From positions 8,918-72,917 of IMG/VR virus record IMGVR_UViG_3300050821_003843: DNA of 64,000 nucleotides. One strand, written 5' to 3'. The position numbers were made by a program, and so were the translations under genes. The first letter of the stretch is position 1. Each line of letters starts with the position of its first letter. Origin of the DNA: a virus. This document shows, one piece after another, positions 3,350 through 51,595 of this stretch. The notes beneath the pieces are model-generated. The model had not been told where the DNA came from. It did not search any database and saw only the letters and a list, made by a program, of their open reading frames with translations.

Positions 3350-3454
3350 TTCATTGTTCCTTAGTTTAGTGATTGAAGCAGGATTTGAACTTGGCAGTCA
3401 GGTGATCGAGTTCACGTTGGAGGAGTGTGAGGAGTAGTGTCATAACGTCATCCC

Positions 3455-3655: not shown

Positions 3656-3696
3656 TTGTCTGTTCCTTCGTTTGAGTGATTGACCTGACACATGAG

Positions 3697-3726
3697 ATTA
3701 TACGCTCACTGGCCAATAAAGATCAA
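3697..3726 (-). promoter_or_regulatory. Sigma70-like early promoter
   Basis: TTGATC-18-TATAAT on the minus strand with an imperfect palindrome in the spacer. Confidence 0.65.
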
Positions 3727-3743
3727 GTAATTCCGTGAAGTTT

Positions 3744-3971
3744 TCAACTTTTCTTCAAAGTTTTCTTAACTTGTTTAATTCCACGGGGTTTGCCACGTTG
3801 AATCGGCTGGTAGTTTGCCTCAAAATGACGTAGGGCAGCTTCGGTGATGTCGTAATAACGTTTGCCCTGTACGACTTGATACGTGGCTTGCAACGTACCG
3901 CAGTCGATCAAGGCTCGCACACTACCGACTGAGCGATACCCTAGTCGTTTGGCAACTTGTGATGGAGTCAT
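3744..3971 (-). CDS. Excisionase/MerR-like HTH DNA-binding protein with AT-hook-like tail (paralog A)
   Basis: TPSQVAKRLGY..VR..I..G.L.A and a QRGKPRG tail. Confidence 0.7.
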   Translation of the reverse strand: MTPSQVAKRLGYRSVGSVRALIDCGTLQATYQVVQGKRYYDITEAALRHFEANYQPIQRGKPRGIKQVKKTLKKS

Positions 3972-4357
3972 TTTCGTTTCAATCCTTCAAAATCATTGCC
4001 ATCGAACCATTCACACATAATCGACCGAACAAGGTTGGTTTCATCATCAGTAAAGCCAGCAGCCTTACAGACAATCACGTCGTCTTCATTACACGGTAAG
4101 GCGAGTGTGCGCCAAGCTTCTTGCACCTGCATATTTTGCTCGGTGAATTCTTCAGCCGACAACTTTGCACCAATTTCAGCAATCGTCTTTTCACCGAGTT
4201 GGACAAGTAGCTTTTCACACTGTTCAAAACGAGCAACCCACTTGACTGGTACGGTCGCAGACACTTTAGGACTACCAGTGATCCCGTTCGGATAAGGTTG
4301 GTCACTATAGATTTCTTGAAACATTCGCAAGATGTTTGGAAAGGCTAAGAGTTTCAT
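3968..4357 (-). CDS. Hypothetical early protein
   Basis: AAGGAACAAACG-ATG leader. Confidence 0.55.
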   Translation of the reverse strand: MKLLAFPNILRMFQEIYSDQPYPNGITGSPKVSATVPVKWVARFEQCEKLLVQLGEKTIAEIGAKLSAEEFTEQNMQVQEAWRTLALPCNEDDVIVCKAAGFTDDETNLVRSIMCEWFDGNDFEGLKRK

Positions 4358-4398
4358 CGTTTGTTCCTTTGGTTGAGTTGCGTTGACTGACACACGAG

Positions 4399-4426
4399 AT
4401 TATACACTGTAACGGCGTTAAAGCAA
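4399..4426 (-). promoter_or_regulatory. Sigma70-like early promoter with spacer palindrome
   Basis: TTGCTT-16-TATAAT; TAACG-C-CGTTA at 4410-4420. Confidence 0.65.
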
Positions 4427-4455
4427 CTGTGGATCACAGAATTCCGAAATAATTT

Positions 4456-4698
4456 TCAAGATTTCTTCAAATTACTCCTTTTCATGGGTTTTCCGCGCGG
4501 TCGTCCCCGTTGGATTGGGTGGTAACTGGCGACGAATTCGGCGAGTTGTGATTCACTGACTGTGTATTCCTTGCGACCTGATGGCAATTCATGACACGTT
4601 GCAGGCATCACTCCAGCAACGATCATGGTGCGGACAAATCGTGAGGAGCGATAACCCAAACGTTTAGCAACTTGAGCGGGGGTGAGTTCAGGTGTCAT
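4456..4698 (-). CDS. Excisionase/MerR-like HTH protein (paralog B)
   Basis: TPAQVAKRLGYRS..VR and a PIQRGRPRG tail; clearly paralogous to 3744-3971. Confidence 0.7.
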   Translation of the reverse strand: MTPELTPAQVAKRLGYRSSRFVRTMIVAGVMPATCHELPSGRKEYTVSESQLAEFVASYHPIQRGRPRGKPMKRSNLKKS

Positions 4699-4746
4699 TA
4701 TGGAGTTCTTTACTTAAAAATGGACCAATTATTCCGTGTCTTTATA

Positions 4747-5118
4747 TCACTTCCACTCGGTCCAGCAGTTCAAATCGTAGTCGTAGTCCCGTGTCAGTTT
4801 CGCCAAACGACAGAATTTGCTGACGAATGTTCCGTCCGCATCACTGTAACTAACATTGCACAAAAGATGTTCGAACGGGAAATCGTAGTTGCTGAAGTCG
4901 ATCCTGATCCATCCGGTTGACCCATCGAACTGATTGCAAACAGCGTCACGGATTTGGTCTTCGAACGGATGGCCAAACACTTCTTCGATTTTGCCACAAG
5001 GGATATATTCCACTAAATCTGTCGGATTCAGATTTCCGAGTTCGTGGCGAACAGCTTTGAGTTGTGATTCCAGTCGAGCCACTTTCAATTCCAAATCGCG
5101 TTTCGTTGACTTGACCAT
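4747..5118 (-). CDS. Hypothetical early protein
   Basis: GAAGGGG RBS before ATG 5118; N-terminal coiled coil. Confidence 0.55.
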   Translation of the reverse strand: MVKSTKRDLELKVARLESQLKAVRHELGNLNPTDLVEYIPCGKIEEVFGHPFEDQIRDAVCNQFDGSTGWIRIDFSNYDFPFEHLLCNVSYSDADGTFVSKFCRLAKLTRDYDYDLNCWTEWK

Positions 5119-5170
5119 GATTTCCCCTTCAATTTGATTGCAAAGTATGTTTAACCCACCCGACAACAAC

Positions 5171-5198
5171 ACTATACACCCTAACGGCGTTAAAACAA
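5171..5198 (-). promoter_or_regulatory. Sigma70-like early promoter with spacer palindrome
   Basis: TTGTTT-16-TATAGT; the same TAACG-C-CGTTA at 5182-5192. Confidence 0.6.
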
Positions 5199-5302
5199 GT
5201 CTGGCTTAAAAGAAAATGACAAGTTTTTTCAAAATAAAAGAAAACCCCGCTCCAACGTCATGTCAGAACAGGGTTTAGGAAAAGTGAAAAAGTTTTGGAA
5301 TT

Positions 5303-7042: not shown

Positions 7043-7615
7043 TTATTGTTGTGGTTCTTCAAATTCTACTGACACGTTTTCCGCACCACTGGGTAGCTCT
7101 AAATCACGATAGATCTGTTCCCTCATCTCATCAATTGTTTGTAGTCGACGTTCTTTTTTCGACTTAGGCATGATCCGTCGTTCTTCGACAACTGGCCCCA
7201 ATGGCTGGTAGAGGGTTTCACCTGCATTGTTCTTACCTACGATGCGAAATGACTGACCACTGACGGCAATTCGTGGGTCGAGTAGGCGCTTGACAGGTTG
7301 CTTTTTCGAATGGCTCTGTTGACGCTTGTGGTTTGCGTGTTCGCGTCGTTCGGCTTGACGTGATCGGCGTAATGCCTCACGTTTTTGTTCCTTCATTTCA
7401 CGCAACTTTTCCTGTTCCTTCTCACGTGCGTTTTTCGTGGCGACGACTTCAGCAGCATAGAGTTCCGCTCGTGTGGGTACTGATTGCAACTTACCTTGAT
7501 CCCTTGAATCGACAAATTGACGATTCACTTCATCAACACCTGTCTGGTCCACTGATGGTTGCTCAACCTGTTCCTTCTTACCACGACTCGACCGTGATCC
7601 TCGACGAAATCCCAT
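7043..7615 (-). CDS. Basic, charged hypothetical protein
   Basis: GAAAGGA RBS; Arg/Lys/Glu-rich coiled coil. Confidence 0.5.
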   Translation of the reverse strand: MGFRRGSRSSRGKKEQVEQPSVDQTGVDEVNRQFVDSRDQGKLQSVPTRAELYAAEVVATKNAREKEQEKLREMKEQKREALRRSRQAERREHANHKRQQSHSKKQPVKRLLDPRIAVSGQSFRIVGKNNAGETLYQPLGPVVEERRIMPKSKKERRLQTIDEMREQIYRDLELPSGAENVSVEFEEPQQ

Positions 7616-9416: not shown

Positions 9417-9425
9417 AAGGAACAA

Positions 9426-9608
9426 ATGATGAAAGAGATTTTAGTCGCCATCAATGAAGAGCTTATGCGGTTGACAAGTAAGTTGTCGATGGAGCGAAGA
9501 TTTCCATCAAACAACCCCGACACGATGGATGAGAACATTCACGATTGTGAGGATCGTATCAAGGTTCTACGTGAAATTCGAACGAAGATTGAAGACGCGT
9601 ATATTTGA
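9426..9608 (+). CDS. Hypothetical coiled-coil protein
   Basis: AAGGAACAA-ATG leader. Confidence 0.5.
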   Translation: MMKEILVAINEELMRLTSKLSMERRFPSNNPDTMDENIHDCEDRIKVLREIRTKIEDAYI

Positions 9609-12041: not shown

Positions 12042-12230
12042 ATGCCTCTATCAAACAAGCGTAAGGCTGAACTTGCATCGAAATCTCATGATAAACTGAA
12101 ATATGGTCAACGATTCGTCTGTCCGTCCTGCGGCGCAGTACATCACTTCGACAGTCATAATGGATGTTTCAATCCAAGGTGTGGTTACAAGGGTTGGTTA
12201 GAACCAGAAAAGAAGGAACAAGCAAAATGA
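12042..12230 (+). CDS. Small Zn-ribbon protein
   Basis: CPSC..CFNPRC. Confidence 0.45.
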   Translation: MPLSNKRKAELASKSHDKLKYGQRFVCPSCGAVHHFDSHNGCFNPRCGYKGWLEPEKKEQAK

Positions 12231-14128: not shown

Positions 14129-14945
14129 AGTAGGTGGGTCAGTCGTCGATAGAATCGGTGAATATGATTTCGATCAGCCCGAAGGGATCAAGATCCTCAT
14201 CTATGGTAAAAGTAAAACAGGTAAGTCAAGGACGATTGCGACATTCCCCGGTCCGATATTATGGATTATATGCTCGGGCGGTAACAAGTCAGGTGAGTTA
14301 CGATCAATTCCATTGGAGCATCGTAAAAAGATCAAGGCAGTCACGGTTAATAGTTCAATGGAGGTTCGCACACTCATCGAACATGCACGTGATAGTGGAT
14401 TGTATAAAACCGTGGCATTGGATCACGGTACGGGTCTGCAAGATCGTGTGCTGGCTGAGATCTTAAAGGTTGATGAACTGCCAGCACAGATGAAGTGGGG
14501 TACAGCATCACGAGACCAGTATATGGACGCGGGTACTCAATGCCGTGAGTTGTTTCGGATGCTGTTATCACTCTCGTGTAACGTGGTGATTGCAGGTCAG
14601 GAACGTGCTCCAAAGGACGTAGGCGACGATAACGAGATGTTATTACCAACTGTGGGGGTCGAGTTGATGCCGTCACTTGCCGGGTGGTTACATCCAGCAG
14701 TGGACTTTATCGTACAGACGTTTAAGAAACAGAAGACGATTGTCAAAACCAGTAAGATTAATGGAAAGGATGTGAATATAGAGGTTGCTGTACCCGGTGC
14801 TGACTTCTGTTTAAGGACTGGACCACACGGAATCTATAATACTGGGTTCCGTACACCAATCGACAATGCGCCTGACTACATCGTTAACCCGAGTTACGAT
14901 AAGATCATGCAGATCGTGAATGGAACTTACAAAGGAACAAAGTGA
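14079..14945 (+). CDS. AAA_24/Sak4-like ATPase (recombination)
   Basis: ILIYGKSKTGKS Walker A, TVALD Walker B, NPSYDKI C-terminus; lies between the exonuclease and SSB. Confidence 0.8.
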   Translation: MPPSIKKQIPTANPKRKVGGSVVDRIGEYDFDQPEGIKILIYGKSKTGKSRTIATFPGPILWIICSGGNKSGELRSIPLEHRKKIKAVTVNSSMEVRTLIEHARDSGLYKTVALDHGTGLQDRVLAEILKVDELPAQMKWGTASRDQYMDAGTQCRELFRMLLSLSCNVVIAGQERAPKDVGDDNEMLLPTVGVELMPSLAGWLHPAVDFIVQTFKKQKTIVKTSKINGKDVNIEVAVPGADFCLRTGPHGIYNTGFRTPIDNAPDYIVNPSYDKIMQIVNGTYKGTK

Positions 14946-15189: not shown

Positions 15190-15390
15190 ATGCTCGTGTT
15201 ATCAAGGAGTCCCGGTGAATCAATTCTTATTGGAGATAACATCAAAGTCACGGTCACGCAAGTTCGAGGAGACCATGTGCGTTTAGGAATCGAAGCACCT
15301 GAAAACGTGAAGATACTACGGAGTGAAGTACCTGACCGTGGTAAATTACCTGCCGAGCAGTGTGGTACAATTGAAGTAGGTAGCGAATAA
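15190..15390 (+). CDS. csrA: Carbon storage regulator CsrA/RsmA (GGA-binding translational regulator)
   Basis: MLVLSR..GESI.IGDNI.VTV..V.G..VRLGIEAP..V.ILR.E. Confidence 0.92.
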   Translation: MLVLSRSPGESILIGDNIKVTVTQVRGDHVRLGIEAPENVKILRSEVPDRGKLPAEQCGTIEVGSE

Positions 15391-15425: not shown

Positions 15426-16664
15426 ATGGCAGCGAAAGTGGCAGTCAGTGCGTTGGGTAAGAAACTTGGGGCAAAGCTGGATACAGCCGTCAAGGCGCAT
15501 CGTAATGATGAGACGAAGGTTGGAGGCAGGGGTAAACTCCCTGACTTCGACAACTACATTGCCCAATTGGTGGATATGAAGATCGGGTACTATGAAAAGG
15601 GGGACAACAAAGGAGAACCATTCTTCTATGCGGCTGGAGCAATTCAGTTTCCGAAAAAGGTCAACGTCAATAAGACGACGGTAGTGGATGTTGAAGGTCT
15701 AAGAACTCAATTTGGACCAGAACCGTTGTGTGATACAAAAAACTCAAAGGGTGAAGTTGTTACACTGGATATGCACGTAGCGAACGTGCTGAACTTGTTC
15801 CGTCTACTTGGCGTTGATACATCAGATGTTGGAGGGGACGATATAGAACCCACCATCGAAGTGTTGAAATCCCAAGCCCCCTATTTCCAAGTGAGTGTGA
15901 GTACCAGTGCAGCAACTACACAGTATCCTAACCCCAAGACATGGGAAAATTGGGGTAAGGCTTGTGAGTACACACCAGATGGGGATACAGGCGTGGTGGA
16001 TGGTACAGGTGAAGAATTAGGGGGTGAATCAACAGAAGAGGAAGTGCAGGAACAATCCAGTGATGTGCCATTCGGTGACGACATTGATGACTTGGTTGGT
16101 ACTGCTAATGGTGAGGATGAGGATGCAGCAGCAGACGCTCATGCGAAGTTGACCGAATTGGCGAAAGCAGCAGGCAAAACGCAGAAGGATATTGACAATA
16201 GTAAGAGTTGGGAACAGGTCGGTGAATGGTGCCGTGAGGGTCAAAATGAAGGTGAGGCAGACGATGCGGTTGACTATGATGCATTAGGCGCAGCAGCCGA
16301 TGGAGGAGACCAAGAAAGTGCCGATAAACTCGATGAATTGCGTCAAGCGGCTGATGTGAGTGATGATGATTTCAATTCGATGAGTTGGATCGAATTGGCT
16401 GCGCACTTGAGTACGCTTGAAGAACCAGCAGCAGAGGAAGAAACAAGTACAACGCCAGAAGTAGGACAAGTGTGGAAGTACAAGCCAATTGAACTGAATC
16501 CAAAAACTAAGAAGATGGAGAAATCAAAGGTAGCGAAAGAACATGAGGTACTGTCTGTTGTGGGGGAGAAGGTGACACTAAAGAACCTCGATACGAACAA
16601 GACACTACTGAATCCAGCCACGAAAAAACCACTACTGATCCCCTTCGAAGAACTCGAAGAGTGA
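15426..16664 (+). CDS. Putative ssDNA-binding protein with long acidic region
   Basis: OB-like N-terminal half, DVPF motif in an acidic tract; follows exonuclease and AAA genes. Confidence 0.55.
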   Translation: MAAKVAVSALGKKLGAKLDTAVKAHRNDETKVGGRGKLPDFDNYIAQLVDMKIGYYEKGDNKGEPFFYAAGAIQFPKKVNVNKTTVVDVEGLRTQFGPEPLCDTKNSKGEVVTLDMHVANVLNLFRLLGVDTSDVGGDDIEPTIEVLKSQAPYFQVSVSTSAATTQYPNPKTWENWGKACEYTPDGDTGVVDGTGEELGGESTEEEVQEQSSDVPFGDDIDDLVGTANGEDEDAAADAHAKLTELAKAAGKTQKDIDNSKSWEQVGEWCREGQNEGEADDAVDYDALGAAADGGDQESADKLDELRQAADVSDDDFNSMSWIELAAHLSTLEEPAAEEETSTTPEVGQVWKYKPIELNPKTKKMEKSKVAKEHEVLSVVGEKVTLKNLDTNKTLLNPATKKPLLIPFEELEE

Positions 16665-16666
16665 TC

Positions 16667-16785
16667 AGGTGGTTACGAAATGAAGTCGACTAGGTGTGCG
16701 AGCGGGGGAACCCCACTTGGGAAACCTAGTGGCAAGTGTAGCGTCGCAATGACTGGTACAATAAACCGACAAAGCCAGTCCACCT
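16667..16785 (+). ncRNA. Putative structured RNA 1
   Basis: AGGTGG/CCACCT closing helix; ACTAGGT/ACCTAGT, GGGG/CCCC and GACTGG/CCAGTC stems; no ORF. Confidence 0.4.
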
Positions 16786-16796
16786 AACCTTATAAT

Positions 16797-16882
16797 CCCT
16801 CTAACCGAGTTGCTAACTGCTGACCTAGTCTGATGGCATGTGGCAGGGTATTAAATGGACTTATTACAACTCGGTTAGGGGG
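16797..16882 (+). ncRNA. Putative structured RNA 2
   Basis: 16-bp closing stem CCCTCTAACCGAGTTG/CAACTCGGTTAGGGGG around a 54-nt interior. Confidence 0.5.
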
Positions 16883-16893
16883 TTTTGATAATG

Positions 16894-16939
16894 CCTCTCC
16901 GTGATTCTGGTTGTTTGTTCCTTCCCGCTTCACGGGGGA
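16894..16939 (+). ncRNA. Hairpin with loop antisense to the AAGGAACA RBS class
   Basis: TCTCCGTGA/TCACGGGGG stem with G-U pairs; GG/CC-closed loop TTGTTTGTTCCTT. Confidence 0.55.
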
Positions 16940-16976
16940 CCACTAGCTGACAGACCTAGGGCAAAAGTCTGTCGAC

Positions 16977-17082
16977 GGAGGTATGGCGAAACTGGTAGAC
17001 GCGACAAGATAAGGATGGTTCAATTCCGTCTGTAACTTATTTTGTAATGGATTATTTGTAGGTTCGAATCCTACTGCCTCCA
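16977..17082 (+). tRNA. tRNA-like RNA (Leu-type D arm, possible CAA loop) with an abnormally extended anticodon arm
   Basis: GGAGGTA/TGCCTCC acceptor; GCGAAACTGGTAGACGC D arm; GTAGG-TTCGAAT-CCTAC T arm; 10-bp plus 5-bp anticodon arm with a 5-nt bulge. Confidence 0.7.
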
Positions 17083-17083
17083 A

Positions 17084-17189
17084 TGAGACTGAATTCCACT
17101 TGAAGAGTACAGTGGTGAATTATCTAGTGCGTGGAAGGTCCATACGTTCTCAGCATGTCGTCTAGGTAATGCTGTAACCCACAGTCTCA
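17084..17189 (+). ncRNA. Putative structured RNA 3
   Basis: TGAGACTG/CAGTCTCA closing stem around three internal hairpins. Confidence 0.45.
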
Positions 17190-17229
17190 ATTTTCTTACT
17201 CCAACTCATGTTTTAGAAAGTGACACAAG

Positions 17230-18006
17230 ATGCTGACAGACAGACTTGAAGGGGTGACGGTATGCGTTGAATATTCTGATTTCCTACGTGAAACACTGCC
17301 GTACAATATGCGGCACTTTGACCGTTATTTGGTCATCACGAAGGAAGGAGACCATGATACGATTGGATTGTGTCGTAAACTTGGGGTGGATTATCTCACG
17401 ACTAACTTGATGACAAAGGGAGATCAGTTCGCTAAGTCACGAGGTATTGATTATGGAATCGCAAACCTGACTGGTGACGGTTGGGTCATTCATGTGGATG
17501 CTGACATCTGGCTACCTCCACAAACTCGACACCTGATTAGTCACGTTAGCTTAGACCCAAAATGTATCTACGGTATCGACCGGGTGAACTGTATTGGGTG
17601 GGACAACTGGAAAAAGTTTATCAGTATGGACCCTCACTTGGAAGAGGCACATCAGTTCTTATGGCATTGTCTGATTGTGCCACCCCCATTTCCACTAGGT
17701 GGTCGATTATCCTTTCGTGAGTATGGCGGGTATGTGCCAATCGGGTTCTTTCAAATGTGGCATCATGGACAGTGCCCCAAGCGTTATCCACTAAATCATA
17801 GTGGCGCAGAACGAACTGACGTACTCCATGCGTTACAGTGGGAACCAGAAAATCGTAGACTACTCCCTGAACTCGTGGCGGTTCATTTGGAATCAGAAAA
17901 GTCAGAACTGGGTAAGAACTGGAATGGTCGTAAGTCGATGAAGTTTGGACCACACCATCATCAACATGAGAAACATCACGAACACCATCAGAAGTATTGT
18001 GATTAG
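17230..18006 (+). CDS. GT-A-fold glycosyltransferase-like protein (paralog 3), His-rich C-terminus
   Basis: VCVEYSDFL, DAD, GFFQMW, HL..NWNGR shared with the genes at 904 and 1716. Confidence 0.65.
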   Translation: MLTDRLEGVTVCVEYSDFLRETLPYNMRHFDRYLVITKEGDHDTIGLCRKLGVDYLTTNLMTKGDQFAKSRGIDYGIANLTGDGWVIHVDADIWLPPQTRHLISHVSLDPKCIYGIDRVNCIGWDNWKKFISMDPHLEEAHQFLWHCLIVPPPFPLGGRLSFREYGGYVPIGFFQMWHHGQCPKRYPLNHSGAERTDVLHALQWEPENRRLLPELVAVHLESEKSELGKNWNGRKSMKFGPHHHQHEKHHEHHQKYCD

Positions 18007-18549: not shown

Positions 18550-18765
18550 GTGCCGATTGCCATCAAAAAACAGGTCAAGCCCCAATCGACTGTAAAATAC
18601 ACGATGGAACACCAACATACGAATGGACCGTATGATAACTTGAACGTGTACGCAAATGGTGTGCGTGTTGGTCAAGTGATATTGATGCACAACGTAGAGG
18701 CAAAGGGATTTATCCAGTTGATAACCCGGTCAGGTGTTCAACTGGTTGTGGATACACATAAGTGA
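18550..18765 (+). CDS. Hypothetical protein (tandem paralog 2)
   Basis: MPIAIKK..EH..GPYD..LM...AK. Confidence 0.6.
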   Translation: MPIAIKKQVKPQSTVKYTMEHQHTNGPYDNLNVYANGVRVGQVILMHNVEAKGFIQLITRSGVQLVVDTHK

Positions 18766-18777
18766 AGGAACAAGAAA

Positions 18778-20877
18778 ATCTTAGGAATCGACACAGAGAC
18801 TTCTGGCGTTGACAAATACCACGGAGCAGCCCCATTCTTTGTAACTGTGTGTGACGATAATGACAATCAAACTTATTGGGAGGCTGATGTCGATCCATTC
18901 ACCCGCAAACCTTTATGGGACTCTTCTGACCTACGCAGTATAAGAAAGACCATACTTGTACCGGGTGAGATGAAGATAATCCACAATGAGAAGTTTGATG
19001 TACCGATGTTGGACAACATCTTACCCGGACTAATGGATGAATGGCCTTGGGATTATACACATGACACGCTAATTAGTGGGCACTTGATTAACTCTAACGA
19101 ACCACACGATCTAACGAGTCAGGTTCTAATCCACTTAGGTCTGAACATCAAGCCAGTGGAAGACAAGCTGCACGAGGCAACAGCAGCAGCCCGTAGAATG
19201 TGTCGAACAAAAGCGTTTATTGCCCAGTTCGGTCAGTGGCGCATTGCTGAAAAGGGTGAAGAGGATTTACCATCGGCAAAGGATGCGACTTGGCAGTTTG
19301 ACACGTTTCTGCCTCGCATGGTAGCCAAATACCAATGGGAAGCGAGTGATGCATATACTGCCTTAGAAAACAGACAACCATTATCCATAATAGAAAAAAG
19401 TAATGGTTGGGAATGGCGTCCTCCTTCAGAAGTCTATGAGGGGTATCATCCGTGGTGGACAGTATTGTCAGAATACGCTAACCCAGATAGCGGGGTGTTA
19501 TGTTACTTGGCAAAGGCGCATCACAAGTGCCTACACGCAAATGATCTGTGGTCTATTTATCTTGAACGAATGAAACTTGTACCACAACTGTGTGCGATGG
19601 AGTCACGTGGCGCAACGTTGCATCAAGGCAGAATGACAGAACTGGAGGAACGGTTTACTAAAGCGTCAGAAGCGGCTGGCCGATTGTGTAAGAACATTGC
19701 ATCAAGGTATGACAACTACAAACTTGAGTTGCCTAAGAACGGGATGAACAACTCATTAAGGGGTTTTCTCTTTGATACAATGAGACTGGAATCACCGATC
19801 AAAACGGATTCAGGTGCCCCATCGTTCGATAAAAATGTGATCGAGCATTTTATGCTGACGCTCCCCACTAAGAGCAAGGAATTGACCTTCGTGGAAAAAT
19901 TAAGGGAAAAGCGTAGCGCAGACACAGCCCTTGGATATTTGACCAGTTATCGAAAGTACATGCTGCCCGATGAAGTGATGGACTTTTACCTGATACATTC
20001 CAAGGTGAATCCAACAGGTACAGCCACATTGCGCAACTCATCACAAGACCCCAATTCCCAACAGGTGAGTAAGAAAGAAGGATTCAACCTACGTTACGTG
20101 TTTGGTCCGTTACCCGGTCGCGAATGGTGGTCGATTGATTACGACAACTTGGAGTTGCGCATCCCAGCCTATGAGTCTGGCGAGCGGGTAATGATTGATA
20201 TCTTCGAAAAGCCCAACGATGCGCCCTACTTTGGCAGTTATCACTTATTAAATGCCAGTATCGTTTATCCTGACTTGTTCTGGCCATTAGCCGAAAAGAA
20301 AGGTGCATTCAAGGAAAAATACGGTTCGACCTACTACCAGTGGATCAAGAATTTCGATTTCGCCGATCAGTATGGTGCAATGTTGGGATCAGGTACAGCA
20401 GACCTAGCAGCACATAAACCCGGTGCGCAAGCAATGGTCCAGGCTAGATTGAAAGAAAAGAACAAACTCAATAACAAGTACATTGACTTGGCTAACAAGT
20501 GGGGGTTTGTTGAGACCATACCCGATATCGAGGTCAATCCACGACGGGGTTATCCGGTCTATTGTTCGCGTTCAAAGTGGGGGCGAGTATCGCCAACGAT
20601 TCCTCTAAACTACCATGTACAGTCTACAGCGTGTTGGATAAAAATGCGTGCTATGTTTAAGGTAGAAGAATACTTGCGGGCAAACAAACTCGATGCCTAC
20701 ATCATCCTCGAAATCCACGATGAATTGATCTTCGATTTCCCATTTGTAAAGGATAAAGGAAATTTACATCACTTGAATGCAATTCGAAAGATCATGGCAT
20801 CTCTAGGCGATTGTGTTGGCATTCCGTTGACGTGTGGACTTTCCTACCATCCTCACAACTGGGCACAAGCGTCATGA
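18778..20877 (+). CDS. polA: Family A DNA polymerase with 3'-5' exonuclease (probable AUC start)
   Basis: ExoI GIDTETSG lies upstream of the tracked start; HNEKFD; T.T.R.SS..PN.QQ; motif A DYDNLELRI; motif C IHDEL. Confidence 0.9.
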   Translation: MLGIDTETSGVDKYHGAAPFFVTVCDDNDNQTYWEADVDPFTRKPLWDSSDLRSIRKTILVPGEMKIIHNEKFDVPMLDNILPGLMDEWPWDYTHDTLISGHLINSNEPHDLTSQVLIHLGLNIKPVEDKLHEATAAARRMCRTKAFIAQFGQWRIAEKGEEDLPSAKDATWQFDTFLPRMVAKYQWEASDAYTALENRQPLSIIEKSNGWEWRPPSEVYEGYHPWWTVLSEYANPDSGVLCYLAKAHHKCLHANDLWSIYLERMKLVPQLCAMESRGATLHQGRMTELEERFTKASEAAGRLCKNIASRYDNYKLELPKNGMNNSLRGFLFDTMRLESPIKTDSGAPSFDKNVIEHFMLTLPTKSKELTFVEKLREKRSADTALGYLTSYRKYMLPDEVMDFYLIHSKVNPTGTATLRNSSQDPNSQQVSKKEGFNLRYVFGPLPGREWWSIDYDNLELRIPAYESGERVMIDIFEKPNDAPYFGSYHLLNASIVYPDLFWPLAEKKGAFKEKYGSTYYQWIKNFDFADQYGAMLGSGTADLAAHKPGAQAMVQARLKEKNKLNNKYIDLANKWGFVETIPDIEVNPRRGYPVYCSRSKWGRVSPTIPLNYHVQSTACWIKMRAMFKVEEYLRANKLDAYIILEIHDELIFDFPFVKDKGNLHHLNAIRKIMASLGDCVGIPLTCGLSYHPHNWAQAS

Positions 20878-26868: not shown

Positions 26869-26923
26869 GATTTGTTCCTTCGTTTCGTGTGTGTCATTTC
26901 GTTTCGTTGAACCCGACAACAGA

Positions 26924-32985: not shown

Positions 32986-33178
32986 CCTGACACCGAAAGA
33001 CAGTGACCCATTTCCATTTGGTCAGTACAAGAGCAAGCGTTACGATCAAGTACCAGCCCAGTATCTTGATTACCTGTTGGGTATGGAATGGATTGATTCG
33101 TGGCCTAGGGTCAAGATGTATATCAAAAAGAACAAGTCAGTGATTGATACTGAACTGAAGGAACAAGAAGATGAGTGA
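32969..33178 (+). CDS. DUF3820-like small protein
   Basis: FPFG.YK......VP..YL.Y motif; GGAGG RBS. Confidence 0.65.
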   Translation: MMPLPDLTPKDSDPFPFGQYKSKRYDQVPAQYLDYLLGMEWIDSWPRVKMYIKKNKSVIDTELKEQEDE

Positions 33179-36884: not shown

Positions 36885-37150
36885 GTAAACGGACTGACCA
36901 CATTAACCATCTTGCCGACTTGCTCAGAGAAGACTTTAAGCGATGGGTAACAACACTACCACTTGAGTCAGTTAGGATTGTTCATGAGCGTTTAGAACGA
37001 ATGACAGATGAAGACACATTGGATGACGTGTACACAGAACTCCATCTGAAGATCACTGGCACGATTCCACAATTCATACAGACAGTGGATGCTGCGATTG
37101 CACAGTCTGAAGCCGCACAAAGTAGAACTGTTAAGGAACGACTAAATTGA
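36881..37150 (+). CDS. Hypothetical protein
   Basis: Packed ORF. Confidence 0.45.
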   Translation: MSKRTDHINHLADLLREDFKRWVTTLPLESVRIVHERLERMTDEDTLDDVYTELHLKITGTIPQFIQTVDAAIAQSEAAQSRTVKERLN

Positions 37151-38730
37151 TAACAGTCAAACGTGAGGGGATTATTGACCCCTTGAAGTTCCAACAAAAG
37201 TTCTGGCCTGATATCACATTCTATGATAAGCAGCGACAGATAATCTACTCGACAATTGAGAATGATGAAACGGTATCACCCGCGGCAAATGTTGCGGGGA
37301 AGGATTTTGTCTCTGCCTTCGTTGCTCTCTACTTTTTCTGTTCTCGTGACCCTGTTCGTGTGGTCACAACCTCTGTAAAGGACGATCATCTTCGAGTGTT
37401 GTGGGGCGAGATCATGAATCTTGTCTCTAGTTCGAAGTACCCCATGAGGTCAAGTGAGGGAGGCAACCTTGTCTGTAATCATCATGAAATAAAGAAGATA
37501 GTACGTGGTAAGTTGTCAGAAAAGTCGTACATGATCGGCATGGTGGCTGCTGAAGGCGCAGCGCTCCAAGGTCATCACTTACCGCGGGGGAAGAACTTTG
37601 CGCCTCACACGTTGTTCGTTGTGGATGAGGCGAGTGGCGTCCCTGACTTGTACTATGAGATGGCGTCGACATGGTTCCATCGTGCTCTCATCATTGGAAA
37701 CCCTTGGGCTTGTAACAACTTTTTCTATAAAGCCGTGAAGGGTCGACCGGGCACAGAAGACCGCGGGGGAGACATTCCACGACCAGACGGCAACGGGTAC
37801 TATCGCAAGATCATTCAGATCAAAGGCACTGACAGCCCCAATGTGCGCTATGGTTTATTGGAACTTGCCGCGGGTAGAGTACCCACAAACAAGATCATTA
37901 CTCCAGGAGTTCTACCGTACTCGGAGTATGTGAAACGGCGTATGTTGTGGGATAAGGTGAAACAAACGGTATCCATTGACGGTGAATTCTATGAAGGTGC
38001 TGAGACAATGATGTTTCCACCTGAATGGCTGGCAAGGGCTGAAAAGATTGCAGCAGAGTTTGTTCCTTATACAACTCGAACAGGTAGAGCTATTGGTTGT
38101 GACCCCGCAGAGGGTGGAGATAGTTCGTGCTGGTCAGTCGTGGATGGTCATGGATTGATTAAACTCATCTCATTGAAAACACCTGACACGAACCTGATCC
38201 CTTATGAGACAATTCGACTGATGAAACTCTATAAGGTGGACGCTAAAAATGTGTGGTTCGACCGCGGGGGTGGTGGTAAACAACATGTCGATCGGCTGCG
38301 TTCAATGGGTCATGAGGTACGAACTGTGGCTTTTGGTGAACCGGCATCAGAGGCAGATTTGTTCAAACGCTATAAGAGGATGTCAGAGAAGCGTGAAGAA
38401 AAGGAAGATCGTACTGTTTACAAGAACCGTAGGGCCGAGATGTATGGTATTATACGTGAACTGATTGATCCATCGAATGAACCCGGCTTTGGGCTACCCG
38501 GCGAGTATCATGAATTGAGGCGACAACTAGCACCAATTCCATTACGTTATGGACGAGAGGGTCAAATGTATCTATTACCAAAACACAAGGAAAAGAGCGA
38601 TTCAACTGAAGAATGTCTGTATGACTTACTCGGTTGTTCACCAGACGAAGCAGATTCGTTAGCGTTGGCCGTGTTTGGTTTGATGATGAGTGACCGACCA
38701 CAAATCACAGTAGGAGCAGTTGATGTCTAG
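37147..38730 (+). CDS. terL: Terminase large subunit
   Basis: ANVAGKD Walker A, FVVDEASG Walker B, IGNP, GCDPA.GGD, N.RAEMY, SPDEADSL. Confidence 0.92.
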   Translation: MITVKREGIIDPLKFQQKFWPDITFYDKQRQIIYSTIENDETVSPAANVAGKDFVSAFVALYFFCSRDPVRVVTTSVKDDHLRVLWGEIMNLVSSSKYPMRSSEGGNLVCNHHEIKKIVRGKLSEKSYMIGMVAAEGAALQGHHLPRGKNFAPHTLFVVDEASGVPDLYYEMASTWFHRALIIGNPWACNNFFYKAVKGRPGTEDRGGDIPRPDGNGYYRKIIQIKGTDSPNVRYGLLELAAGRVPTNKIITPGVLPYSEYVKRRMLWDKVKQTVSIDGEFYEGAETMMFPPEWLARAEKIAAEFVPYTTRTGRAIGCDPAEGGDSSCWSVVDGHGLIKLISLKTPDTNLIPYETIRLMKLYKVDAKNVWFDRGGGGKQHVDRLRSMGHEVRTVAFGEPASEADLFKRYKRMSEKREEKEDRTVYKNRRAEMYGIIRELIDPSNEPGFGLPGEYHELRRQLAPIPLRYGREGQMYLLPKHKEKSDSTEECLYDLLGCSPDEADSLALAVFGLMMSDRPQITVGAVDV

Positions 38731-51532: not shown

Positions 51533-51595
51533 AGCCACTGACCTTTAAGCAAGGGCTTTGTGTCAACTTTCACCTAAGCTTAGGGGTCAGTGGTT
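51533..51595 (+). ncRNA. Long hairpin with loop antisense to the GAAAG(T)TGACAC RBS class
   Basis: 18-bp stem with G-U pairs; AGG/CCT-closed loop GCTTTGTGTCAACTTTCA. Confidence 0.6.

What the first reader, a model, noticed from the sequence alone, without database searches (positions are those of the whole stretch)
16894..16939. Second hairpin whose loop is antisense to the other RBS class (AAGGAACA)
Seen: a stem / internal loop / GG-CC helix with apical loop UUGUUUGUUCCUU, the same architecture as the 51533 hairpin. Its complement (G)AAGGAACAAACAA matches leaders of early and middle genes: 3656-3669 (-) and 12212-12225 (14 nt with one G-U), 4359-4369 (-), 26871-26881 (-), 9417, 14932, 18764 and 33157, with shorter AGGAACA at 3355, 6832, 10762, 12577 and 18310. 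No start codon follows it on the minus strand, so it is not itself an RBS. Inference: a middle-expressed sRNA that shuts off or tunes the AAGGAACA gene class.
Basis: partly seen in the sequence, partly recalled or inferred. Interest (0 to 1): 0.85.

Follow-up and report, generated by a model that had tools for sequence, protein, structure and literature searches.

The report
Anti-RBS hairpin in phage tRNA leader
An uncultured soil phage carries, just upstream of a tRNA-like gene, an RNA hairpin whose open loop mirrors the ribosome-landing tag on about a dozen of its own genes; similar elements in a few other phages suggest it controls their translation together, but no experiment shows this.

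Summary
A hairpin at 16896-16938 has a 9-bp stem and the loop UUGUUUGUUCCUU. Its complement is a real leader motif: AAGGAACA occurs 19 times against 3.4 expected, 17 sense and 2 antisense.

In a motif-blind scan this loop ranks top genome-wide for antisense multiplicity. The hairpin lies in a 566-nt ORF-free island. It follows a terminator-like hairpin and sits 53 nt before a tRNA-like gene.

No sequence homologue exists in any collection searched. Three distant relatives with other private leader motifs each have an orphan antisense copy 26-70 nt upstream of a tRNA or tRNA-like gene. In Cluster K mycobacteriophage Anaya, the single reversed SAS copy sits in the apical loop of a conserved hairpin.

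Most likely this is a trans-acting anti-leader RNA domain, perhaps released by RNase P. Expression, timing and the sign of the effect are untested. Fourteen of 19 tRNA leaders tested show nothing.

This scan has noted anti-RBS-loop hairpins before on other phage DNA. Those are AI notes, not independent evidence.

The parts
16896..16938 (+). Hairpin: 9-bp stem (16896-16904 with 16930-16938), internal loop, marginal GG/CC helix, 13-nt apical loop 16911-16923
16913..16924 (+). Anti-leader core GUUUGUUCCUUC, the complement of (G)AAGGAACAAAC
16797..16886 (+). Long hairpin with a 16-bp closing stem followed by UUUU. It looks like a terminator and lies directly upstream.
   Evidence: read from the sequence and the MFE fold; the consensus terminator scan did not call it
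16948..16975 (+). Second small hairpin (GACAGAC / GUCUGUC stem) between the anti-leader hairpin and the tRNA-like gene
16977..17082 (+). tRNA-like gene with good acceptor, D and T arms and a 36-nt insert where the anticodon arm should be. It is the presumed RNase P substrate that would define the 3' end of the leader RNA.
   Evidence: Rfam RF00005, 40 bits against a cut-off of 29; ARAGORN finds it only with the intron option
3656..3669 (-). Target leader of a 66-aa early gene: 14 nt complementary with one G-U, duplex -20.7 kcal/mol
4359..4369 (-). Target leader of a 129-aa early gene: 11 nt, -18.4 kcal/mol
26871..26881 (-). Target leader of a 62-aa gene in the antisense island: 11 nt, -16.5 kcal/mol
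9417..9426 (+). Target leader of a gene of about 60 aa: 10 nt, -15.9 kcal/mol
12212..12225 (+). Target leader (ATG 12227): 14 nt with one G-U, -20.5 kcal/mol
14932..14941 (+). Target leader of a 58-aa gene: 10 nt
18764..18773 (+). Target leader in front of the DNA polymerase reading frame (no canonical start; ATC at 18778): 10 nt, -16.9 kcal/mol
   Evidence: homology upstream of the first GTG
33157..33166 (+). Target leader of a 27-codon ORF: 10 nt, -14.9 kcal/mol
38058..38068 (+). The only other antisense copy (GTTTGTTCCTT). It lies inside the coding region of gene 37147-38730.
15190..15390 (+). Phage CsrA homologue in the same gene module. It is a possible second reader of the GGA-containing leaders.
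   Evidence: Pfam PF02599, E 4.4e-24, 84.6 bits against a cut-off of 27

Best explanation
The hairpin is the working part of a phage-encoded anti-leader RNA. It is transcribed on the + strand as part of the 5' leader of the tRNA-like gene at 16977-17082.

Its 13-nt loop plus the adjoining C is complementary to the phage's private Shine-Dalgarno-plus-spacer motif (G)AAGGAACA(A/G)AC. That motif sits 2-7 nt before the start codons of about 10-15 early and replication genes.

Pairing of 10-14 nt would cover the ribosome-binding site and so tune down translation of the whole tagged gene set at once. RNase P cleavage at the 5' end of the tRNA-like gene would release the leader as an RNA of about 80-90 nt carrying two hairpins.

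Shown: the fold, the complementarity, the motif's enrichment and position, the genomic context, and recurrence of the design in other phages.

Inferred: transcription, RNase P release, pairing in vivo, and that the effect is repression.
For: 1. The motif is real and sits at start sites. AAGGAACA occurs 19 times against 3.39 expected, with 0 of 100 shuffles reaching 19. Seventeen copies are sense and 2 antisense by my strand map. Ten of the 19 are followed within 2-15 nt by a start codon opening 30 codons or more; two of those ten lie inside a 190-aa ORF. Copies also precede the polymerase frame and a 27-codon ORF.

2. A motif-blind scan of every sense 9- and 10-mer for complementary sense sites ranks 16914-16916 first or joint first genome-wide. 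The other top loci are 38059, 51560-51563 (the other hairpin) and 62355. For the nine 10-mers with 5 or more sense copies, 7 antisense windows in 4 loci were observed against 0.5-0.8 expected under Markov models.

3. Dinucleotide shuffles of the 566-nt island reach the observed maximum in 77 of 5000 trials at k=8, 19 of 5000 at k=9 and 47 of 5000 at k=10. No other part of the island stands out.

4. The loop is predicted to be open (0.83-0.88 unpaired) in local contexts. Duplex energies with seven of the eight 10-14-nt target leaders are -14.9 to -20.7 kcal/mol; the eighth (14945) is -12.3.

5. Context. In this phage family the slot between the p417 gene and polA is a + strand tRNA locus. ARAGORN finds tRNAs in 19 of 85 loci, most of them in that slot and all of those on the + strand.

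6. Recurrence with different motifs:
- G005/L174 has (A/G)GGAGCAAGCA before 9-11 starts and one orphan reverse copy 27 nt before tRNA-Met.
- L218 has the same motif family with one orphan reverse copy 70 nt before a tRNA-like gene, in unrelated flanks.
- G006 has a strong hairpin (-29.2 kcal/mol, z -5.83, 0 of 200 shuffles) ending 9 nt before the first tRNA of a cluster. Its 10-nt apical loop UUUGUCCUCC mirrors TTGGAGGAC/ATGGAGGAC leaders.
- In the test, 5 of 19 upstream rows (4 sites) have p <= 0.017. None of 19 downstream controls falls below 0.067.

7. Cluster K mycobacteriophages. Pope et al. 2011 report one opposite-orientation SAS per K1 genome that is not at a gene start (passages). In Anaya I place it in a 385-nt gap, in the 10-nt apical loop of a stem / internal loop / helix hairpin. 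Across 10 phages 94.5% of cells pair, against 31-49% when slid, and 2 pairs show compensatory change.
Against: - No RNA data exist. No run was listed, and that is not evidence either way.
- The hairpin is only marginally more stable than shuffles (z -0.44 and -2.57). In a 1.1-kb fold the loop pairs with a GA-rich coding stretch instead.
- It has no U-run of its own. It lies behind a terminator-like hairpin. The one promoter-like site (16863-16892) is at chance level: 1 found against 1.2 expected.
- The four syntenic relatives examined in detail (L162, L164, L165, L166; polA about 41-46% identical) have no counterpart in the same slot. None of the collections searched holds a sequence homologue, so covariation in this hairpin itself cannot be tested.
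- One of the two antisense copies lies in a coding region. Such copies can therefore exist without a dedicated hairpin.
- Fourteen of 19 tRNA leaders tested were unremarkable, with p 0.12-1.0. G000 is the finding itself, and G005 and L218 were already known when that test was run. Only G006 is a fresh hit among the 10 newly fetched records.
- A looser scan at k=8 showed no enrichment: 159 windows in 98 kb of islands against 774 in 539 kb elsewhere.
- In the relatives the motif is only about half unpaired (0.48-0.59).
- In Cluster K, Ekdilam's reversed copy differs from its own SAS at 4 of 13 positions, and SirPhilip has lost the motif.
Confidence: 0.5

Rival explanations
1. Coincidence or relic. 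The loop holds a chance or decayed reverse copy of an abundant A/G-rich motif. The hairpin is just spacer structure in a tRNA island and has no regulatory role.
For: - The thermodynamic signal is weak.
- A second antisense copy sits in ordinary coding sequence.
- The k=8 family-wide scan shows no enrichment, and 14 of 19 tRNA leaders are negative.
- The four syntenic relatives examined in detail lack any counterpart.
- The finding was picked out after the fact by a reader looking for patterns.
Against: - Island shuffles reach the observed value in 0.4-1.5% of trials, before even requiring an apical-loop position.
- 7 antisense windows were seen against 0.5-0.8 expected for the top motifs.
- The same arrangement appears with different motifs in G005, L218 and G006, and in Anaya.
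Confidence: 0.2
2. A real RNA that pairs with the leaders but does not repress them. It could shield the GGA-containing leaders from the phage CsrA or from a nuclease, open an inhibitory fold, or act as a mimic of the 16S rRNA 3' end.
For: - A CsrA gene lies 1.5 kb upstream in the same module and is common in the family: 43 of 85 loci have a hit, duplicates included.
- The motif contains GGA.
- All four loops (this window's, G005/L174, L218, G006) end in UCC or CUCC, the core of the anti-SD.
Against: Pairing across the SD is expected to block 30S binding; this is established for many sRNAs and is recalled, not tested here. L218 shows the antisense copy but has no CsrA hit in its 10.9-kb locus.
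Confidence: 0.15
3. The minus strand is the active one. A minus-strand transcript would display AAGGAACAAACAA in a hairpin loop as an RBS or CsrA-site decoy.
For: GGA in a hairpin loop is the preferred CsrA site (recalled), and CsrA is encoded nearby. In G005 a TATAAA-like box lies about 25 nt upstream of the orphan copy on the minus strand (read by eye).
Against: - U-runs follow the long hairpins only on the + strand.
- All the slot tRNAs and the flanking genes are on the + strand.
- I saw no -10-like box upstream on the minus strand in the window (by eye).
- The promoter scan lists no minus-strand site.
Confidence: 0.07
4. A purely structural leader element that guides processing or folding of the tRNA-like precursor. 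On this view the loop sequence is incidental.
For: The element lies 38 nt upstream of a tRNA-like gene, among other back-to-back structured elements.
Against: This does not explain why the loop, rather than the stem, carries the genome's most multiply complementary sequence. Nor does it explain why relatives with other motifs carry their own motif's complement at that position.
Confidence: 0.08

Closest known systems
Start-associated sequences (SAS) of Cluster K mycobacteriophages (Pope et al. 2011, PMC3203893; passages read)
   Same: A private motif longer than the SD lies 3-7 bp before many start codons, almost always in one orientation. Each K1 genome has one opposite-orientation copy that is not at a gene start. 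In Anaya I found that copy in the apical loop of a hairpin in a 385-nt gene gap. The fold is kept in 10 phages.
   Different: - The motif sequence is different (GGGATAGGAGCCC), and so are the host phylum and the phage family.
- The Anaya copy is not next to its tRNA-Trp.
- The passages I read of three papers give the SAS role as unknown. 'Antisense' occurs 0 times in Pope 2011 and in PMC12699233; 'hairpin' was searched only in PMC12699233 (0 times); neither word was searched in PMC11373665. Supplements were closed.
- Ekdilam and SirPhilip deviate.
c4 antisense repressor RNA of phages P1 and P7 (Rfam clan CL00128)
   Same: From recall: a phage-encoded antisense RNA whose loops pair with ribosome-binding regions of phage mRNAs and whose precursor is cut by RNase P. 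Papers naming c4 as an RNase P substrate were seen only in a search listing.
   Different: No c4-family match appears in the island even at E <= 10. L162 gives only a sub-threshold c4-2 hit at E 0.34. c4 acts on one operon in cis-linked fashion. Here there are 10-15 dispersed targets, and a bona fide tRNA-like gene lies downstream.
C/U-rich-loop sRNAs that pair with SD sequences (for example S. aureus RNAIII and RsaE; recalled, no call)
   Same: A pyrimidine-rich hairpin loop is complementary to the SD region of several mRNAs.
   Different: Those are host-encoded, have their own promoter and terminator, and recognise the generic SD. Here the complement extends 5-8 nt into a phage-specific spacer.
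tRNA-precursor-derived regulatory RNAs (for example 3'ETS-leuZ of E. coli) and the stable RNAs of the phage T4 tRNA cluster (recalled, no call)
   Same: A regulatory or stable RNA is co-transcribed with tRNAs and released by tRNA processing.
   Different: Those act as sRNA sponges or have unknown roles. None is known to me to be an anti-RBS 5' leader.

Membership tests
Trans-acting base-pairing sRNA that occludes ribosome-binding sites | An accessible single-stranded seed complementary to the SD or start region of several mRNAs | tested here: met
   The loop is 0.83-0.88 unpaired locally. There are 10-14 nt matches to 8 leaders, with duplexes of -12.3 to -20.7 kcal/mol.
Trans-acting base-pairing sRNA that occludes ribosome-binding sites | Made as a discrete transcript with defined ends | not testable with these tools
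   No sequencing run was listed. The promoter-like site is at chance level and the hairpin has no terminator of its own. A 3' end made by RNase P is inferred from the tRNA-like gene.
Trans-acting base-pairing sRNA that occludes ribosome-binding sites | Seed conserved or co-varying with its targets in relatives | tested here: inconclusive
   No sequence homologue was found. Analogous elements carrying each phage's own motif occur in G005, L218 and G006. However, 14 of 19 tRNA leaders are negative.
c4 antisense RNA family (Rfam CL00128) | A match to the covariance models | tested here: not met
   No c4-clan hit in 16600-17300 at E <= 10, and none at gathering score in the window.
SAS-type private leader system (Cluster K) | A motif longer than the SD, a few nt before many starts, in one orientation, with a single orphan reverse copy | tested here: met
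   19 copies against 3.4 expected. 17 are sense and 2 antisense. Spacing is 2-7 nt. The motif sequence is unrelated to GGGATAGGAGCCC, so this is an analogue and not a member.
Intrinsic terminator | A G+C-rich stem followed directly by a U-run | tested here: not met
   The hairpin is followed by ACCACUAGCUG. The scan finds 0 terminator-like sites in 16400-17400.
CsrB/RsmZ-type CsrA sponge RNA | Many GGA motifs displayed in hairpin loops on the transcribed strand | tested here: not met
   The + strand loop has no GGA. By eye I count about 8 GGA in 566 nt, which is near chance. There is no Rfam Csr/Rsm hit.
tRNA (the neighbouring gene 16977-17082) | A cloverleaf that scores above the Rfam cut-off and has a normal anticodon arm | tested here: inconclusive
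   RF00005 scores 40 bits against a cut-off of 29, but there are 36 nt where 11 are expected. ARAGORN with default settings finds nothing. With the intron option it calls Asn(att) with a 25-nt intron.

The most novel reading that the evidence does not exclude
Many phages may run a two-part translation-addressing system. The first part is a private tag (an SD plus a phage-specific spacer) on a chosen set of mRNAs. The second is one master RNA hairpin displaying the tag's complement. In this phage family the hairpin is built into the 5' leader of a tRNA or tRNA-like gene, so that RNase P would liberate it. This would give the long-unexplained start-associated sequences of Cluster K mycobacteriophages a partner and a mechanism. 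It would also make tRNA islands of phages a place to look for riboregulators.
Probability: 0.3. Interest if true: 0.85.

Novelty: new variant of a known kind. Interest (0 to 1): 0.7.

Why it matters
If the reading is true, a single short RNA lets a phage address a whole class of its own messages through a private extension of the ribosome-binding site. That would be a compact timing or dosage switch needing no protein. The tRNA-leader position suggests a maturation route through RNase P that does not require a dedicated promoter or terminator.

The parallel in Cluster K mycobacteriophages matters most. They can be grown and engineered in Mycobacterium smegmatis, and the role of their start-associated sequences was still described as unknown in passages of a 2024 paper and as needing experimental verification in a 2025 paper. 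The idea is therefore directly testable there.

Tried and rejected
Searches for homologues of the hairpin or island found nothing:
- blastn against 50,697 phage records
- an exact 26-nt pattern in IMG/VR
- blastn and nhmmer against 160 loci anchored on the glycosyltransferase and 85 family loci; only tRNA T-arm matches appeared

The glycosyltransferase anchor was a dead end. That gene is mobile, and none of the 160 loci shares the window's neighbouring genes. Single-protein scans with p417 and the glycosyltransferase found no relatives. The genome-contig scan with p417 found none.

Sequencing runs: none was listed. This is no evidence on expression.

ARAGORN tmRNA calls at relaxed thresholds were rejected. 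The tag peptide is unrecognisable and overlaps the tRNA-like gene.

A loose family-wide k=8 scan was too noisy to use and showed no enrichment. Its apparent hits in L188, L230, L176, L209 and L179 are coding repeats or lie inside genes. G001's reverse copies of CTGAGGAGA lie inside long ORFs. G002-G004 have no strongly repeated leader motif.

I tested whether Anaya's reversed SAS lies next to its tRNA-Trp. It does not. I tested loop-SAS covariation in Ekdilam. It is not seen: the SAS is unchanged and the reverse copy has diverged.

Paper searches on phage CsrA and on anti-SD sRNAs gave nothing pertinent in the listings. That the anti-SAS hairpin is not in print rests only on two searches and on term look-ups in three papers. 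Supplements were closed, and the ZoeJ paper (Dedrick 2019) was not read.

Full report
**What is there.** The window is bases 8918-72917 of a 72.9-kb IMG/VR phage record with direct terminal repeats. At 16896-16938 the + strand folds into a 9-bp stem with two G-U pairs, an internal loop, a marginal two-pair GG/CC helix and a 13-nt apical loop, UUGUUUGUUCCUU.

The fold is not a thermodynamic outlier:
- z is -0.44 in a 66-nt frame.
- z is -2.57 for the 46 nt alone, with 3 of 200 shuffles folding as well.

In frames of 87-286 nt the core stem pairs have probabilities of 0.73-1.00 and the loop is 0.83-0.88 unpaired. In the whole island the stem falls to about 0.5. In a 1.1-kb frame the loop pairs with a GA-rich coding stretch at 16434-16445.

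**The motif.** The complement of the loop contains AAGGAACA. That 8-mer occurs 19 times in the window against 3.39 +/- 1.92 in shuffles; 0 of 100 shuffles reach 19. By my strand map 17 copies are on the sense strand and 2 are antisense.

Ten of the 19 are followed within 2-15 nt by ATG, GTG or TTG opening 30 codons or more. Two of those ten lie inside the 190-aa ORF 7043-7615 and are probably not starts. Two more copies precede the DNA polymerase frame, which lacks a canonical start, and a 27-codon ORF. Five further genes carry the 7-mer: AGGAACA before 10771, 12585, 18321 and 6826(-), and AAGGAAC before 37147.

The minus-strand copy in the hairpin has no start codon after it.

**Context.** The hairpin lies in a 566-nt ORF-free island (16665-17229) between a 417-aa gene and a glycosyltransferase gene. 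The island reads, in order:
- structured RNA
- a long hairpin with a 16-bp closing stem followed by UUUU (16797-16886)
- the hairpin in question
- a second small hairpin (16948-16975)
- a tRNA-like gene (16977-17082; Rfam tRNA 40 bits against a cut-off of 29, with 36 nt where the anticodon arm should be)
- another long-stem element followed by a U-rich run

A CsrA homologue lies at 15190-15390 (Pfam E 4.4e-24).

About 80 IMG/VR phages with polA 31-50% identical share the order exonuclease, Sak4, CsrA, p417, variable slot, polA. ARAGORN finds tRNAs in 19 of 85 loci, most of them in the slot and all of those on the + strand. The hairpin is therefore in the 5' leader of a tRNA-like gene within the family's tRNA island.

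**Is the loop-motif relation chance?** A scan that knows nothing of hairpins or genes counted, for every sense 9- or 10-mer, the complementary sense sites. It ranks 16914-16916 first or joint first. The other top loci are 38059, 51560-51563 (the other hairpin) and 62355.

For the nine 10-mers with 5 or more sense copies, 7 antisense windows in 4 loci are seen against 0.5-0.8 expected under Markov models. A general excess of about 1.3-1.5-fold at k=8 shows that the model is somewhat low.

Dinucleotide shuffles of the island reach the observed maximum in 77 of 5000 trials at k=8, 19 of 5000 at k=9 and 47 of 5000 at k=10. Nothing else in the island stands out. Two of the four antisense loci are in coding sequence, so such copies also occur without a dedicated hairpin.

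**No direct homologue.** Nothing similar to the hairpin or island was found in 50,697 phage records, in IMG/VR by exact pattern, or in 245 fetched loci. The four syntenic relatives examined in detail (L162, L164, L165, L166) have shorter, unrelated sequence in the slot. Covariation in this hairpin itself cannot be tested.

**Analogous elements in relatives.**
- *G005 (contig of L174, polA 44% identical).* The leader motif (A/G)GGAGCAAGCA precedes 9-11 starts on both strands. One orphan reverse copy lies 27 nt before tRNA-Met, between the p417 stop and the tRNA.
- *L218 (polA 38% identical).* It uses GGAGCAAGC before 3 starts. One orphan reverse copy lies 70 nt before a tRNA-like gene (Rfam 40.9 bits), inside a long hairpin followed by a U-run. 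Its flanks do not align with L174.
- *G006.* A very stable hairpin (-29.2 kcal/mol, z -5.83, 0 of 200 shuffles) ends 9 nt before the first tRNA of a Leu-Arg-Met cluster. It has an 11-bp stem, an internal loop, a 7-bp helix and a 10-nt apical loop, UUUGUCCUCC. That loop is the complement of the TTGGAGGAC/ATGGAGGAC leaders of at least 3 genes.

I then tested 17 records, 14 of which hold a tRNA or tRNA-like gene (19 rows). For each row the best anti-leader 8-mer in the 120 nt upstream was compared with 3000 random sense segments. Five rows (4 sites) gave p <= 0.017. The other 14 rows gave p 0.12-1.0. None of the 19 downstream controls fell below 0.067.

Caveats apply to that test. G000 is the finding itself. 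G005 and L218 had been found by earlier scans. Only G006 is a fresh hit among the 10 newly fetched records. A looser k=8 scan showed no enrichment. In the relatives the motif is only about half unpaired.

**A cultivable parallel.** Pope et al. 2011 (passages read) describe the 13-bp SAS 3-7 bp before the starts of many Cluster K genes. They note that each K1 phage has a single opposite-orientation site that is not associated with a gene start, and they leave the function open.

I located that site in Anaya in the 385-nt gap between gp96 and gp97. The + strand folds into an 11-bp stem, an internal loop, a 6-bp helix and a 10-nt apical loop, CCUCCUAUCC. That loop is the antisense of the SAS core.

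The region is conserved in 132 mycobacteriophage records. In 10 sampled phages 94.5% of pair cells are standard pairs, against 31-49% when slid. Two pairs show compensatory change, and 13 of 500 shuffles reach the observed covariation score.

There are exceptions:
- Ekdilam keeps the canonical SAS at 12 of 15 + strand sites, but its reverse copy differs at 4 of 13 positions.
- SirPhilip has lost the loop motif.
- Some records annotate a small hypothetical protein over the region.
- The Anaya site is not next to its tRNA.

Passages of a 2024 paper call the SAS role ill-defined or not known, and passages of a 2025 paper say it still needs experimental verification.

**Mechanism proposed.** The + strand is the likely active strand. 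The U-runs, the slot tRNAs and the flanking genes are all on it.

The tRNA-like gene has intact acceptor and T arms, which are what RNase P recognises (established knowledge, recalled). Cleavage at 16976/16977 would therefore free a leader RNA with two hairpins.

Its open loop can form 10-14 nt duplexes (-14.9 to -20.7 kcal/mol for seven of the eight target leaders, -12.3 for the eighth) over the SD and spacer of the tagged genes. That should hinder 30S binding.

The 5' end is unknown. It could arise from read-through of the upstream hairpin or from the weak promoter-like site at 16863-16892. Timing and the sign of the effect are inferred, not shown.

**Rivals.**
- Chance or relic
- A pairing RNA that protects or activates, possibly in interplay with the phage CsrA
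- A minus-strand decoy
- A purely structural leader

**Compared with the known.** The element works like the P1/P7 c4 antisense RNA and like SD-targeting sRNAs, but it is not a member of any Rfam family. It is closest in logic to the SAS system, for which it suggests a partner. This scan has noted anti-RBS-loop hairpins in other phage genomes before. Those are unchecked AI notes and I did not count them as evidence.

Noticed in passing
window 18763-18847: The DNA polymerase frame is open from the in-frame TGA at 18763-18765. tblastx homology to relatives starts at 18775-18781, upstream of the first GTG at 18847. AAGGAACA lies 5 nt before an ATC at 18778. Either a non-canonical start or read-through from the 71-aa ORF is likely.
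   Followed up: partly
window 16977-17082; L218 3704-3785; L178 2687-2826; L246 1558-1649: tRNA-like genes with normal acceptor, D and T arms but enlarged or replaced anticodon regions recur in the same slot in several family members. The window's insert contains a second T-arm-like hairpin (GATGGTTCAATTCCGTC).
   Followed up: partly
window 15190-15390 and 43 of 85 family loci: A CsrA homologue is a conserved gene of this phage family, placed between Sak4 and p417.
   Followed up: partly
window 17230-18006: The glycosyltransferase gene next to the island is mobile. Relatives 40-69% identical occur in 160 viral and metagenome loci, and none shares the window's neighbouring genes. Some homologues carry names from Pirellulales or Planctomycetaceae MAGs.
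   Followed up: yes
window 3691-5230 (-) and 26919 (-): Early leftward genes have sigma-70-like promoters (TGTATAAT or GTATAAT) followed by near-identical leaders that end in the AAGGAACA motif. Upstream of them lies a repeated TTGAAAA...GGAATT element.
   Followed up: no
window 38058-38068 and 37133: Gene 37147-38730 carries AAGGAAC at its own ribosome-binding site. About 920 nt downstream it holds an exact 11-nt antisense copy of the extended motif, in the loop of a small local hairpin.
   Followed up: partly
L172/L173/L241 3340-3411: ARAGORN calls a tRNA with anticodon CTA, a possible amber suppressor, in the same slot in one relative lineage.
   Followed up: no
L169 3490-3557 and 6669-6734: Two matches to the Rfam int-alpA RNA above the gathering score in one relative.
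   Followed up: no
L162 4171-4236: A sub-threshold match (E 0.34, 23.8 bits against a cut-off of 41) to the c4-2 RNA model in the homologous slot of a relative. The window shows a loosely similar stretch at about 16740-16800 that gave no hit.
   Followed up: no
L299 37840-37915 (Mycobacterium phage Anaya, record about 59.84-59.91 kb): The single reversed SAS of a Cluster K1 phage sits in the apical loop of a hairpin that is conserved in 8 of 10 sampled relatives.
   Followed up: yes
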